64,000 nucleotides of DNA from the human T2T-CHM13v2.0 reference genome, Homo sapiens: the NCBI RefSeq assembly GCF_009914755.1, contig NC_060938.1. One strand, given 5' to 3'. Shown in pieces: positions 29,329 through 47,652 of the stretch. Position numbers and translations under genes: made by a program. Below the pieces are notes generated by a model. The model saw only the letters and a program-made list of their open reading frames with translations. It made no database searches and was not told the origin of the DNA. The stretch's first letter is position 1, and every line of letters begins with the position of its first letter.

Positions 29329-30324
29329 AACTTTTCTTAATTTTAGATAAAGTCTTCCAGTTCCATCCTGAATGGTGTATGAATAGGAGAGGATGCCTGA
29401 ATTAGCACGGAGCCCAAACTGAACCAGTTTTTCATGCTTCACACAGGGTGTAGAGAAGCATTGCCCAAACTGTGCAATGAATTATTGTACAATCAGAAGT
29501 GCTCACTTTTAACTTAAAAACACATTCATGTTAAGCATAATTTCTTAGATCCTCAAAGTCAGTATTTTAATTTGATTCTCTTTTTGTCACATCTAAAAGA
29601 AAACAACATCAATGTTAACTGGGTTGTGGGCTTTTGCCCATAGTCATTTGAATATCATCAATGTCTCCTTCTTGCTTTTATCTTTATTGTCCAAAATATG
29701 AATGTTATTTTTGGTTGTAATTTTCTTTGATCTTTCTGTGCTTTCTATTCTTTTAATATCTTAAATTAAGAACACTTCAATGTATCTAATTTTCCGACCC
29801 CTACCTTTATCTTAATGAGCTTGCTTTCACAGTCACTAGCACTAGTGACCGTGACTTTTTATGCAGTCATTTGTCCCCAGAGCTATCTTCCTTCAGTAGT
29901 AACTGCAAAATAAGCCAAAGAACAAACTGTCCTTATTCTTCTAAGGTTCTTTTAGGGCTTTGGTTGCTAGTATTATTTTCTTCCACCTAGCCCATTTTCT
30001 TTCCCTTTTTTCTATTACATATGCATGTTTACCTCCCTTGATTATCAAGATATGTCACCCCTAGACCTATCTAGTATAACTTTGATCTCTTTGTTTCTAC
30101 ATCTTTGACTTTTTCATGGCAACTGTTACTTCAGATTCCCTTAGCTAAACTGATCTGTTTCCCATTTTAAGGCTTACTCAAGATCAAGATTCTGTATCTG
30201 ATTCCTTAGACTCTTGGCTTAGCCTGGACCATCTACCTAAATTATCAGCTTTTGGACTCTTAGTTTCTGATCTTCACCCTAACACATATAATTGCATATG
30301 GCAACTTTGTGAAATGTTCCAGCT

Positions 30325-30524
30325 GTTTGGGCTGGTTCCAAGTCTTTGCTATTGTGAATAGTGCCTCGATAAACATGTGTGTGCATGTGTCTTTATAGCA
30401 GCATGATTTATAGTCCTTTGGGTATATACCCAGTAATGGGATGGCTGGGTCAAATGGTATTTCTAGTTCTAGATACTTGAGGAATCGCCACACTGTCTTC
30501 CACAATGGTTGAACTAGTTTACAC
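30325..30524 (-). mobile_element. 200-bp L1PA ORF2 3' fragment without poly(A); left inversion breakpoint
   Basis: Encodes CKLVQPLWKTVWRFLKYLELEIPFDPAIPLLGIYPKDYKSCCYKDTCT. Confidence 0.95.
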
Positions 30525-30526
30525 GC

Positions 30527-43900: not shown

Positions 43901-45762
43901 CATTTTCCAGGTGCCATCTGGCTTCTTCACAAGCCACATAGGGCTATTATAGGGACTCTGGGCTGGCCTATCTGTACCTTATTTAATTGCTGAGTTGTTT
44001 GGGTGACTTCAGAGTGTCCTCCTGGCAGGTGGTATTGCTTCACGTTCACTGCCTGCCTGGGCTGGGGCAGGTGTGCAGGCACCCATTTTGGCCCATCTTT
44101 TTGCTCCTTAATTTCTTTCTGGACTTTGTTCTTGTTCTTATCCAGCTCACTGAGGTCTGCCAATGCTTCCCTCATATCACAGATTTTATTTCCCATTAAT
44201 GGACTCAGAAGTGTAATCAATGCCCCGCATCCTAGCCCTTTTTAAGTTGAAAATGACTCAGATATTTAATGAGTATCTAAAATAATTTTAAGATTTAAAA
44301 CTACACAAAAAGTTTCCTACAAGCATTTACCTCATTTATATTTACACAGTTTATTCATTTTTAGTAGTTTATCTAAATTATTCATGAGAACCAAGACACT
44401 GGACAAAGCTAATTATCATTCTAAGTTACTTCCTTCTTAACCATTTTCAGAGCCTCTGAATATCAGGTGTTCATCTAAGCAAGAAACTTAAACACATGGG
44501 AAGTTTTGCTGATAACTCAGAAAATTTAGCTGTTTTCATTGAACCCACAATATTAAATTAGCCTTATTTGTCAAAAAAAGTACACAAACAGGCCGGACAC
44601 AGTGGCTCACGCCTGTAATTCCAGCACTTTGGGAGGCCTGAGGCAGGTGGATCGCTTGAGGTCAGGAGTTCGAGACCAGCCTGGCCAACATGGTGAAACT
44701 TCATCTCTAATAAAAATACAAAAATTAGCTGGGTGTGGTGGCGCACGCCTGTAACCCCAACTAGCTACTCGGGAGGCTGAGGCAGGAGAATGGCTTGAAC
44801 CCAGGGGGCTGAGGTTGCAGTGAACCGAGATTGCGCCACTGCACTCCAGCCTGGGTGACAAGAGCGAAACTCCTTCTCAAAAAATAGATAAATAAATAAA
44901 TAAAATAATAATAAAAATGCACAAAGATCATCCCATATTAGGCTGGGTTTATCATCTTATAACTTTCACGTCAAGCCTTGATATCTTAAAATATTTTAGC
45001 AGAAGCAAAATATATTGCTGAAGAATATAGTTGCAGAAGAAAATATAAAACTCATCTAATCAGTAAACGCAGACAAAAATGCATGCTGACAATTCTGAAG
45101 ACATTTCTATTTTTATTTTACCAATAATTTTAAAGGCAACTTACTTATGTTTTACATCTTAGCTAGAACTGACTGAACTGTATAGAAAAACAAAGTCTCC
45201 AAATGGCCTTGAATTGGCAAGACCATAAACAGTGAGTTTTATCTCAATACCAGTATCTTAATAACAGGAGATTCAAAGCAGGCAGAAAAGAAAATAGAGA
45301 GCGTTAGAAGACTCGACTTAACTCTGTAGTGCAGGCTAACCATTTGAGCTCTGATTTTTTTTTTTTTCTAATTTGCCTGCCAGTTTTAAAATGTGCAGAA
45401 GAAAGGGCCATAATACACAACCAGCTAGAGTTCTAGAAAACCTGGCATGGCTTTAAACTTCCTCAGGAGTTTCTACCCTTTCTCCCGTTTCTACTCTTAA
45501 CGATTTCTTAGTACCCAGCCTTATTGCAACAATAGTGTGTTTGCTATCCTTATAGTACTTTAATGTCTTAGCTTCTTGGAGTACATGCTCAGTCCCACCA
45601 GTATTTTCTGAGTGTCCCTGTACTCATGTGGTAGCCCACGGGGTTGAGTAGTTGGGCAACTCCACCTGACATGCATGTTGCTAACTACCCTGGGGATTCT
45701 CCCTGCCGACACCCTTTCCTGACTCATCATTTGGTCTCCTGGATCCTGTTGGTGATACCAAT
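40930..45762 (-). mobile_element. Class III ERV internal region (leader/gag-side, pol RT-RNaseH-IN remnants); Alus at 41529-41839(+), 42598-42877(-), 44591-44917(+); MST/THE1 LTR 43174-43548 (TSD agcag)
   Basis: Minus-strand peptide PKWVPAHLPQPRQAVNVKQYHLPGGHSEVTQT (ERVL-like RT N-terminus); PBS next to the LTR. Confidence 0.8.
45743..45760 (-). other. Primer binding site, tRNA-Ser(CGA)-like
   Basis: atcctgttggtgatacca versus recalled tRNA 3' end atcctgttcgtgacgcca (15/18, mismatches at CpG positions). Confidence 0.65.
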
Positions 45763-46164
45763 AGTTATGAGAAAAATTTGGAACTGTAACATCTCCCCCA
45801 AACAGGGAAGGAGTCAAGAGACCAAAGAATGACTCAGACCTAAGTCCAGCTTGATGAGTAGATGAGTTTATTAGGACTTATATACAGGGCACTCCTGGAC
45901 AGCGGCAGGACAGCTCTAGAGATCTGTGCCACCTCCTGTCTCTAAAATGCCTTTAAGCTAATTTTCTGGATTTTTGCATACTGTGTTTGAGTGATGAGAC
46001 TGTTTTTCTTAGTAGGTTCTCAGATACTCTCTAGGATGTTTGGGTTCTCAGGGACACCTGCTCCTTGGCTGGGCACCATGGCCTTGGCTTGCTGCCCAGC
46101 CTTCAGGGTTCAAGCAGCGGACATACACCCTTAAGTAACCTGGTGGGGGACCTGTCACACTACA
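45763..46164 (-). mobile_element. 5' LTR of the same provirus
   Basis: Begins tgtagtgtgacagg on -; flanked by atatc (46165-46169). Confidence 0.88.
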
Positions 46165-47652
46165 ATATCAAATCTCCCCAAATTGATTTTTGAGTCAATG
46201 CAGTTGCTGTAAAAATCTCAGCATATCTTTTTATAAAAATTAACAAGTTAATCTTTAGGTTCATACGGAAATCAAAGGATATCGAATAACTAAAACAATT
46301 TTGGAGAAAAACCAAAGTCATGGGCTAATATGAACTTTGTTCAAGGCTTATTATAAAGCTGTAGTAATCAAGACAATATGGCTTTGGATAAAGATAGATA
46401 AATAGATCAAAGGAACAGAATAGAGTTCAGAAACATACACATACTTTCATAGATAACTGATTTTTGAGAAAAATCAGTGGAGAAAACTTTTTAACAAATG
46501 CTTCTGGAAAAATTAGATACCTATATGCAAAAAAATGAAATTTGATCAATACCTTGTATTGTAGATACAAATTAAATAAAGATGGATTAGAGATCTAATG
46601 TAAAACACATAATTAATAAAACTGCTAGGAAAATATATGAGAAAATTTTTGTGACCATGGCTTAGGCAAAGATTTCTTAGGTACAAAAACAAAAGCACAG
46701 TCTACAAAATAAAAACCTGATAAATTAGACTTCATCAAAATTTAAAACTTCTGCTCTTCAAAAAACACTGTGAGAGTATGAAAAGACAAGGTACAGGCTG
46801 GGGAATAATATCTGCAAAGCATGCATCTGATAAAGGATAAACAATCCAATTTAAAAACAGGCAAAGTATCTGATCTGAGACATCACCAAAAATGTATATA
46901 CAGATAGCACATAAACACATGAAAAGATGCTCAATATCATTAGTAACTAAGGAACTGCAAATGAAAACCATAATGAGATATCACCCTACACCTTTTAGAA
47001 TGGTTAAAATTACAAAGACTGACTCGTGTCAAGAGCTGTTGAGGATTTGGAAGAACTAGAACTCTCATATGTAAAATGAGAATGTAAACTGGTACAACCA
47101 CTTGGAAAATAGTTTGGCAGTTACCGAAAGTGTGAAATGTACTTCTACCACATGGCTGAGACATTTTGTTTCTAGATATTTACACAAGAGAAACAAATGC
47201 TTATGTGTATACACAGACTCGTATATGAATGTTCTCAGCAACTTTATTTGTGATAGCCCAAAACCTGGAAACAACCCAGCATCCATCAACAGGCGAATAG
47301 ACAAAGAAATTCTGTTATATGCAGGCAGTGGAATACTACTTAGAAATAAAAAGAAATGATACATGCAACAAGACAGATGAATCCCAAAATAATTTTGCTA
47401 AGTGAAAAAACCAAAGCCACAAGTTGTACCACTTAGGTACAATTCTAGAAAATGCAGACTAAAGTGATACGACATAGATCAGTGGTTGCCTGGGATTGGG
47501 GAAAGTAGGGCTGGGGAGAGACAGGAGAAGGGCATACAAAAGGGAATGAGGAAAGATTATGGTGGTGATTGCATGGCTATACGCATATATCAAAATTCAC
47601 CAATTTTATACCTATATATAATCAGTTTATTGTATATTAATTATATCTTAAT
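46165..47652 (+). mobile_element. 3' portion of the host L1M (ORF2 end and 3'UTR)
   Basis: gaacagaatagagttcagaa, cacatgaaaagatgctcaatatc, terminal attatatcttaata. Confidence 0.85.

What the first reader, a model, noticed from the sequence alone, without database searches (positions are those of the whole stretch)
30317..46169. Hidden ~10 kb inversion (~30.4-40.4 kb) revealed by three target-site duplications split across strands
Seen in sequence: (1) The 18-mer right after the L1PA poly(A), agaaagacattaccagct (40912-40929), occurs reverse-complemented at 30527-30544, directly beside the 5' end of the L1PA fragment at 30325-30524, with an L1-endonuclease-like TT/AGAA site. (2) ttccagct (30317-30324) is the reverse complement of agctggaa (40233-40240) at the other two L1 ends. 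(3) Two homologous ERV LTRs point in opposite directions and are flanked by gatat (31883-31887) and atatc (46165-46169), i.e. one 5-bp TSD. (4) Flipping the segment rejoins the host L1 ORF2 in frame: RIGRLYIVKIS-NLPKLI (compare [17 protein letters not shown]). Inference: non-allelic homologous recombination between inverted L1PA pieces flipped ~9.9 kb after these young L1s inserted, so the inversion should be lineage-restricted and may be polymorphic or recurrent.
Basis: partly seen in the sequence, partly recalled or inferred. Interest (0 to 1): 0.9.

Follow-up and report, generated by a model that had tools for sequence, protein, structure and literature searches.

The report
Old 9.9 kb inversion between L1 pieces
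A 9.9 kb stretch of gene-free human chromosome 14 was flipped at some point in ape evolution, most likely by recombination between two oppositely oriented L1 fragments, which is a known and ordinary kind of rearrangement.

Summary
Window 30325-40240 (9,916 bp) is inverted relative to the order that existed when an ERV and a young L1 inserted. Three independent split features show this. (1) The 18-mer beside the L1 poly(A) recurs only once, reverse-complemented, beside the 5' end of the other L1 piece. (2) The two ERV halves are contiguous, with the 18-mer present once, in two other genomic copies of that ERV. (3) The old LINE-like repeat that hosts the ERV is contiguous across the 5-bp ERV duplication in 6 of 9 other copies examined.

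The two L1PA pieces share about 200 bp but come from different L1 lineages. They differ at all 6 subfamily-variable sites, which excludes one cDNA as the source of both. The layout matches retrotransposon recombination-mediated inversion (Lee et al. 2008).

Caveats:
- One inferred parental L1 has no poly(A) and no endonuclease site.
- Four of the 8 bases of its "duplication" could be L1 sequence.
- The exchange point cannot be placed.
- A two-break repair event with L1 filler therefore stays open.

Lineage restriction is inferred only. Polymorphism and recurrence could not be tested. This is a new member of a known kind, of modest interest.

The parts
30317..30324 (.). Copy 1 of the site-1 target duplication (ttccagct), abutting the 3'-side end of the left L1 piece
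   Evidence: reverse complement of 40233-40240
30325..30526 (-). Left L1PA piece. L1 homology runs 30326-30523 and covers the same ORF2-3' stretch as 40300-40495. Base 30325 is ambiguous. 30524-30526 (cgc) is a 3-base filler at the L1 5' junction. There is no poly(A).
   Evidence: best genomic L1 matches 96-97%; 6 of 197 differences from the 'AA-type' majority
30527..30544 (-). Upstream copy of the 18-bp L1 target-site duplication, now reverse-complemented
   Evidence: I11, 18 of 18
30545..31481 (+). 3' internal part of the ERV, sense on the + strand: an env-TM-like hydrophobic tail (recognised by eye) and a purine tract before the LTR. It is interrupted by a high-copy repeat of about 360 bp at 30822-31181.
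31482..31882 (+). ERV 3' LTR (TGGTAGTG...CTCATAACA)
31883..31887 (.). ERV 5-bp target duplication, copy gatat
31888..32172 (-). Upstream part of the old LINE-like host repeat, now on the minus strand. Its frame ends ...RIGRLYIVK.
30325..40240 (.). The inverted segment (9,916 bp), bounded by the two 8-mers. The true exchange point lies somewhere inside the two L1 pieces.
40233..40240 (.). Copy 2 of the site-1 target duplication (agctggaa). Its last four bases, GGAA, could equally be L1 sequence.
40241..40911 (+). Right L1PA piece: ORF2 3' end, 3' UTR and poly(A). Private features are a 1-bp deletion, an 8-bp deletion at about 40431 and a 7-bp tandem duplication at 40466-40472.
40912..40929 (+). 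Downstream copy of the 18-bp L1 target-site duplication
40930..45763 (-). 5' internal part of the ERV, sense on the minus strand, with pol remnants. It is interrupted by Alus at about 41530-41839, 42598-42879 and 44590-44906, and by the ~360-bp repeat at 43171-43546.
   Evidence: RT_RNaseH E=4.4e-4, 20.8 bits, below the cut-off of 24.8
45764..46164 (-). ERV 5' LTR
46165..46169 (.). ERV 5-bp target duplication, copy atatc
46170..46620 (+). Downstream part of the old LINE-like host repeat. With the 5-bp duplication (46165-46169) its frame starts ISNLPKLI...
   Evidence: (39 other-copy matches listed at 66-83% identity, 1,695 first-look candidates)

Best explanation
The segment at window 30325-40240 was inverted after an ERV provirus, and later two L1PA fragments, had inserted here.

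Inferred order of events:
1. An old LINE-like repeat received a gamma-like ERV, with a 5-bp duplication GATAT in the ERV sense.
2. A 5'-truncated L1PA of about 614 bp (L1-1) inserted into the env region of the ERV by ordinary target-primed reverse transcription. It has a TTT/AGAAAG site, an 18-bp duplication and a poly(A).
3. About 10 kb away, in unique DNA, lay a second L1PA fragment of 255 bp in the opposite orientation (L1-2). It overlapped L1-1 by about 200 bp.
4. An exchange within this shared block (136 nt ungapped at 96%) flipped everything between them.

The exchange left two chimeric L1 pieces whose flanking duplications now match only across the inversion and on opposite strands.

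Shown: the inversion, the colinearity of the ERV and of the host repeat once flipped, and the two different L1 lineages. Inferred: the prior existence of L1-2, homologous exchange as the mechanism, and the age. The age limit is roughly 20 My at most, because both L1 pieces are about 3% from their subfamily majority.

The confidence of 0.6 is for the whole statement including the recombination mechanism. For the inversion alone I would give about 0.95.
For: - The 18-mer occurs only twice, on opposite strands, each time beside an L1 end.
- Two other genomic copies of the same ERV (L033, L034) carry the sequence left of the minus-strand 18-mer (reverse-complemented) and the sequence right of the plus-strand 18-mer as one continuous stretch, with the 18-mer present once. 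The overlap of the two matches is exactly 18 bp in both.
- The LTR pair is inverted, 89.3% identical, with reverse-complementary 5-bp outer flanks.
- The host repeat is colinear across that 5-mer in 6 of 9 other copies. In 4 of them the alignment comes within 7 bp of the junction, and in 2 it runs through the junction. The other 3 copies gave no left-flank match.
- The L1 sequence next to the upstream 18-mer is in sense orientation with a 3-base filler. That is a normal L1 5' junction.
- The two L1 pieces differ at 6 of 6 sites that vary among 45 genomic L1PA copies.
- Among the 21 best matches to the 3' part of the right piece that cover the relevant sites, 14 carry the left piece's AA state and 3 carry the right piece's own TG state. 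None of 25 carries the right piece's C at 40445.
- Swapped duplications on inverted L1s are the published diagnostic of retrotransposon recombination-mediated inversion. In that study more than half of the L1 cases exceed 10 kb (PMC2603318, sections 7 and 19, read).
Against: - L1-2 would be an internal L1 fragment with no poly(A). Its site (…AAACAG/AGCTGGAA) is not endonuclease-like. It is therefore not a canonical insertion.
- GGAA of its 8-bp duplication equals L1 sequence (41 of 45 copies). Only 4 bases are surely duplicated target.
- Both site-1 flanks are single-copy in the genome, so that junction has no independent repeat-based check.
- No exchange point can be placed. A mid-block, a right-edge and a left-edge placement need 2, 2 and at least 3 private changes (my count).
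- The right piece as a whole is 2.8% from the 'TG-intermediate' majority, within that group's own range of 1.5-4.8%. It need not be chimeric.
- No outgroup or second human haplotype was available to show the pre-inversion state.
Confidence: 0.6

Rival explanations
1. A two-break inversion repaired with L1 filler; no resident second L1 ever existed. One double-strand break fell inside L1-1, near ...CCCAAA/TGTCC. A second, staggered break (4-8 nt) fell at AGCTGGAA, 10 kb away. The fragment between them was re-ligated in reverse. At one junction the broken L1-1 end copied about 260 nt from another L1 (DNA or cDNA) before joining through the GGAA microhomology.
For: - The 'second L1' has no poly(A), no endonuclease site and ends abruptly.
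- There are 4 bases of microhomology, GGAA, at its 5' junction.
- A 7-bp tandem duplication and an 8-bp deletion sit in the right piece close to where L1-1 sequence would resume.
- Lee et al. describe inversions in which an L1 seems to act only as a break site (PMC2603318, section 14).
Against: - It needs two simultaneous breaks plus an in-register templated insertion from a third L1, which is more steps than one exchange between two resident repeats.
- GGAA microhomology is equally expected at the ordinary 5' junction of a truncated L1 (recalled from the L1 literature, not checked here).
- The scars in the right piece may simply be later mutations.
Confidence: 0.22
2. One L1 retrotransposition event created both L1 pieces and the inversion together. 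This would be a twin-priming-like or integration-coupled rearrangement, with both pieces copied from one RNA.
For: - Both pieces sit exactly at the breakpoints, and one breakpoint is a bona fide L1 endonuclease site.
- Pairwise divergence of the overlap (about 12 substitutions in about 190 bp) is roughly twice each piece's distance from its subfamily majority. Two copies made at the same time would look like this.
Against: - The pieces differ at all 6 subfamily-variable sites. These include the linked, non-CpG pair A/A versus T/G at 40326 and 40345, which also varies in copies chosen without reference to the left piece. They therefore do not come from one template.
- The L1 next to the upstream 18-mer is in sense orientation. 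Twin priming predicts antisense there (reasoned).
- The two pieces cover the same L1 coordinates rather than adjacent ones.
Confidence: 0.04
3. There is no inversion. Either the pattern comes from independent insertions and chance matches, or the CHM13 assembly mis-oriented the segment.
For: Only one assembly was examined. The 8-mer alone is not significant.
Against: - Three unrelated elements (the L1 duplication, the ERV interior, the host repeat) all become colinear under one and the same flip.
- A perfect 18-mer has zero chance expectation.
- The inverted repeats at the breakpoints are only about 200 bp. By general knowledge of the technology, not tested here, that is far shorter than the long reads used for such assemblies.
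Confidence: 0.03

Closest known systems
Retrotransposon recombination-mediated inversion, L1 type (L1-RMI; Lee, Han, Meyer, Kim & Batzer 2008, PMC2603318; abstract and sections 6, 7, 14 and 19 read)
   Same: - Two L1PA elements in opposite orientation span the two breakpoints.
- Each is flanked by non-matching duplications that match across the inversion.
[quoted passage not shown]
- The elements involved there are L1PA younger than about 20 My.
- The region is non-genic.
   Different: - One partner here is a 255-bp internal fragment without poly(A) and with at most an 8-bp duplication.
- The shared block is only about 200 bp.
- Chimerism of the elements could not be demonstrated.
- The pre-inversion state was not seen in any genome.
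- Whether this locus is among their 21 L1-RMI loci is unknown, because their supplementary list could not be opened.
Human polymorphic inversions mediated by inverted repeats (InvFEST set; PMC3961182, passages with the locus tables read)
   Same: Inversions of 5-100 kb flanked by inverted repeats, some of them L1PA or THE1 elements. Many are recurrent.
   Different: The two chr14 entries listed there (HsInv0344 at 34.08 Mb and HsInv0347 at 60.14 Mb, in that paper's coordinates) are other loci. Their repeats are 1.6-16 kb, against about 0.2 kb here. No polymorphism data exist for this locus in what I could read.
L1 twin priming (5' inversion within a single L1 insertion; recalled, not read here)
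   Same: Two L1 segments in opposite orientation associated with one target-site duplication.
   Different: - Here 9.9 kb of host DNA lies between them.
- The segment next to the upstream duplication is in sense orientation.
- The segments overlap in L1 coordinates.
- They come from different L1 lineages.

Membership tests
L1 recombination-mediated inversion (RRMI) | Two elements of one retrotransposon family, in inverted orientation, span the two breakpoints | tested here: met
   30326-30522 versus 40495-40300 on opposite strands, 87% over 204 columns; 136 nt ungapped at 96%
L1 recombination-mediated inversion (RRMI) | The duplications flanking each element do not match each other, but match the other element's as reverse complements | tested here: met
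   18 of 18 and 8 of 8; 4 of the 8 may be L1 sequence
L1 recombination-mediated inversion (RRMI) | Both elements are chimeras: the front of one parent and the back of the other | tested here: inconclusive
   The pieces belong to different lineages (6 of 6 variable sites). The best matches of the right piece's 3' part mostly carry the left piece's AA state (14 of 21). The right piece also fits one intermediate subfamily (2.8%).
L1 recombination-mediated inversion (RRMI) | Each parent was an ordinary insertion: poly(A), endonuclease-type site, own duplication | tested here: not met
   Met for L1-1: TTT/AGAAAG site, poly(A), 18-bp duplication. Not met for L1-2: no poly(A), site AAACAG/AGCTGG.
L1 recombination-mediated inversion (RRMI) | The un-inverted state, with both parents intact, is seen in an outgroup or another haplotype | not testable with these tools
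   Only the window's own assembly is held. No primate or other human genome is available.
L1 twin-priming 5' inversion | The inverted 5' segment abuts the 3' segment inside one pair of direct duplications, antisense next to the upstream duplication, both from one RNA | tested here: not met
   9.9 kb lies between the pieces. The orientation at the upstream 18-mer is sense. The lineages differ.
Endogenous retrovirus provirus (gamma-like, class I) | Two LTRs bounded by TG...CA with a short target duplication | tested here: met
   LTRs of about 401 bp, 89.3% identical, 5-bp duplication once flipped
Endogenous retrovirus provirus (gamma-like, class I) | Recognisable pol domains | tested here: inconclusive
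   Only RT_RNaseH at E=4.4e-4, 20.8 bits, below the cut-off of 24.8, on the minus strand. Eight single ORFs gave nothing. The class assignment rests on motifs recognised by eye.

The most novel reading that the evidence does not exclude
The inversion is human-specific, or still segregating or toggling in humans. Alternatively it arose in one step during break repair that captured L1 sequence. The second case would be a germline counterpart of the L1-associated rearrangements described in tumours, fixed in a region that lies in the wider BRMS1L-MBIP-NKX2-1 gene desert.
Probability: 0.12. Interest if true: 0.5.

Novelty: new member of a known kind. Interest (0 to 1): 0.3.

Why it matters
It shows that a small evolutionary inversion can be read from one genome alone, using split target-site duplications and split nested repeats. 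That method is already in print (PMC2603318). The locus carries no annotated gene, and the nearest annotated functional element (silencer at 50804-50863) lies outside the segment, so no functional effect is expected. Its use is as a phylogenetic marker for apes, and as one more data point on how short (about 200 bp) and how imperfect (about 94-96% identity) an L1 homology block can be at an inversion breakpoint. It would matter more if the second L1 turned out never to have existed as an insertion. The locus would then document a one-step, L1-templated break repair in the germline.

Tried and rejected
- Repeat-based check of the site-1 junction. Both flanks (29925-30324 and 39841-40240) are single-copy in the genome, so no such check is possible.
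- Showing that the host repeat is L1 ORF2. tblastn of the flank translations against 45 L1PA loci gave no hit. Searches against solved structures, with stops read as X, gave only chance-level hits and no L1 ORF2p. The 'L1M ORF2' label therefore rests on recalled similarity (…IVKM.ILPK…). Continuity of the repeat was shown at the DNA level instead.
- Pfam on eight ERV ORFs gave nothing. The read-through frames gave one sub-threshold hit.
- Locating the exchange point by subfamily haplotypes was inconclusive.
- Literature search for this locus:
  - 'polymorphic inversions' + InvFEST + chr14 returned one paper, listing other chr14 loci.
  - BRMS1L + inversion + breakpoint returned 4 papers, seen in the listing only; none concerns this inversion by title or abstract.
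  - inversions + L1PA + NAHR + great apes + T2T was seen in the listing only and gave nothing locus-specific.
It may hold this locus.
- One-cDNA and twin-priming models were considered and rejected (see rivals).
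Full report
**What is there.** The window is T2T-CHM13 chr14:30,070,001-30,134,000, a gene-free stretch distal to BRMS1L (hub annotation).

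The 18-mer AGAAAGACATTACCAGCT occurs exactly twice in 64 kb, at 40912-40929 (+) and 30527-30544 (-). No match was expected in 100 shuffles, even with 2 mismatches allowed. The plus copy directly follows the poly(A) of an L1PA 3' fragment at 40241-40911. The minus copy lies three bases from the L1 5' end of a second L1PA fragment at 30326-30523, which is on the opposite strand. Read in the ancestral orientation, the site is cagTTT/AGAAAGAC, a plausible L1 endonuclease site. The L1 next to the upstream 18-mer is in sense orientation, as at any ordinary 5' junction.

A self-comparison of 26-50 kb confirms two inverted pairs:
- The L1 pieces, 30326-30522 against 40495-40300, 87% over 204 columns with two indels. 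The longest ungapped block is 136 nt at 96%.
- Two LTRs, 31481-31881 against 46166-45764, 89.3% over 403 columns.

The LTR outer ends abut gatat (31883-31887) and atatc (46165-46169).

**Is the ERV really one provirus split by an inversion?** The window's own assembly can be searched. The ERV interior is a low-copy family: 21 matches for 40912-41528, one of them the window's own locus.

In two other copies (L033 on contig 11, L034 on contig 14), two sequences map as neighbours on one strand. They are the reverse complement of 30527-31900 and the forward sequence from 40912. The matches overlap by exactly 18 bp in both copies. A local alignment shows ...CTGTAGTCACAGC.CAGT.TAGAAAGACATTACCAGCT.CCATGGGTAGCAGGAACAA... 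as one continuous stretch, with the 18-mer present once.

One detail needs correcting: the ERV sense strand is the minus strand in 40930-46164. That part holds the 5' LTR and pol remnants. The only Pfam hit is RT_RNaseH at E=4.4e-4, below the cut-off, and eight single ORFs gave nothing. The sense strand is the plus strand in 30545-31882, which holds a hydrophobic env-TM-like tail, a purine tract and the 3' LTR. The L1 sits in the env region.

**Host repeat.** I could not confirm the 'L1 ORF2' label with a tool. tblastn against 45 L1PA loci gave nothing. A search of solved structures, with stops read as X, gave only chance-level hits. The label rests on recalled similarity.

Continuity was tested at the DNA level instead. 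The right flank belongs to an old family: 39 matches to other copies were listed at 66-83% identity, from 1,695 first-look candidates. I fetched the 300 bp upstream of nine copies whose match began within 8 bases of the flank's start.
- In 6 of 9 the reverse-complemented left flank aligns directly upstream and colinear.
- In 4 of these the alignment comes within 7 bp of the junction, and in 2 it runs through the 5-mer.
- In 3 of 9 there was no left-flank match.

Three unrelated features are thus all repaired by one and the same flip of 30325-40240 (9,916 bp): the L1 duplication, the ERV interior, and the host repeat with the ERV duplication. I regard the inversion, relative to the ancestral order, as established. 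The only reservation is an assembly error, which is very unlikely.

**The other breakpoint.** ttccagct (30317-30324) and agctggaa (40233-40240) abut the remaining two L1 ends. The 8-mer is not rare in itself: 6 matches against 3.2 expected. Only its position is informative.

In 41 of 45 genomic L1PA copies, and in their majority, the four bases before the point where the right piece starts are GGAA; the other four copies read GAAA or AGAA. So the last four bases of the 8-mer at 40237-40240 may be L1 sequence or junction microhomology, and the duplicated target is 4-8 bp. Both flanks here are single-copy in the genome, so no repeat-based check is possible.

**Mechanism: one L1 source or two?** I compared the two pieces with 45 genomic L1PA copies. 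These were 19 best matches of the left piece, 19 of the first 260 bases of the right piece, and 7 of the whole right piece.

Within the shared block, six sites vary among these copies (minor state in at least 6 of 45). The two pieces differ at all six: left AACATA, right TGTGCC. Four of these sites are not CpG sites. The linked pair at 40326 and 40345 (A/A versus T/G) also varies among copies chosen without reference to the left piece. A further 20 stretches were fetched upstream of the best matches to the right piece's 3' part alone. Adding the six loci already held gave 26 copies, of which 21 cover that pair. They read AA in 14, TG in 3 and mixed in 4. None of 25 copies carries the right piece's C at 40445.

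The two pieces were therefore not copied from one template. That removes one-cDNA and twin-priming models. Those models also conflict with the sense orientation at the upstream 18-mer and with the overlapping L1 coordinates.

Private changes are few:
- Left piece: 3 substitutions in about 200 bp.
- Right piece: 8 substitutions and 3 indels in 665 bp.

Distances to subfamily majorities are about 3%: left piece 3.05% from the AA-type, right piece 2.8% from the TG-intermediate type. The groups' own members average 2.9%. Both L1s are thus of ordinary L1PA age. Lee et al. place the L1PA subfamilies involved in such inversions at under about 20 My (PMC2603318, section 7). The LTR divergence of 10.7% makes the ERV clearly older.

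**Best reading.** The layout is the one described for retrotransposon recombination-mediated inversion: two inverted elements at the breakpoints, each now flanked by non-matching duplications (PMC2603318, section 19). That study found 21 L1 cases among 49 such loci between human and chimpanzee, and more than half of the L1 cases exceed 10 kb (section 7).

I therefore favour an exchange between L1-1 and an inverted 255-bp fragment, L1-2. L1-1 is about 614 bp with an 18-bp duplication and a poly(A).

Points against:
- L1-2 has no poly(A) and no endonuclease-type site.
- Its duplication is short and partly ambiguous.
- I cannot place the exchange. By my count, a mid-block placement needs 2 private changes, and so does a placement at the right edge near the 7-bp tandem duplication at 40466-40472. 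A left-edge placement needs at least 3.
- The right piece can also be read as an unrecombined member of an intermediate subfamily.

The main rival is a two-break event in which the broken L1-1 end copied about 260 nt from another L1 before joining through GGAA. Only a genome with the un-inverted order can decide between the two.

**What could not be done.** No other primate genome or human haplotype is held. 'Lineage-restricted' therefore remains an inference, and 'polymorphic or recurrent' is untested.
- Literature searches found no report of this locus (the last two by listing only).
- The chr14 inversions of the InvFEST validation paper are elsewhere.
- The supplementary locus list of Lee et al. 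could not be opened.

**Verdict.** It is a further example of a known mechanism in a gene-free region, so its interest is modest.

Noticed in passing
window 30822-31181; also 43171-43546 and 37585-38312 (the last split by an Alu at about 37807-38149): Three copies of a high-copy interspersed repeat of about 360 bp (9,807 first-look candidates in the genome, about 80% identity). One is inserted in the ERV 3' part; ERV copy L033 lacks it. The family was not named.
   Followed up: partly
window 26576-27236: Two Alu-like elements lie head to head, about 45 bp apart, and form a 660-bp near-palindrome (self-match on the opposite strand, 81% over 668 columns). Arrangements like this are known to be break-prone. 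This one lies 3 kb outside the inversion.
   Followed up: no
window about 37935-37985: A very long A/T homopolymer run is attached to the Alu at 37807-38149. It shows up as a ladder of 26-mer matches and as poly-K/poly-F ORFs.
   Followed up: no
window 40299, 40431, 40466-40472: The right L1 piece carries a 1-bp deletion, an 8-bp deletion and a 7-bp tandem duplication (CAAAGAC). At most one of the 45 compared L1PA copies shares either deletion, and none carries the duplication. They could be later mutations or scars of the exchange.
   Followed up: partly
L034 (G000 contig 14, 44,755,000-44,762,000): Another copy of the same ERV family on the same chromosome carries an insertion of about 3.5 kb (with Alus) between the parts matching query positions 1140 and 1126-1374. 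It is otherwise colinear.
   Followed up: no
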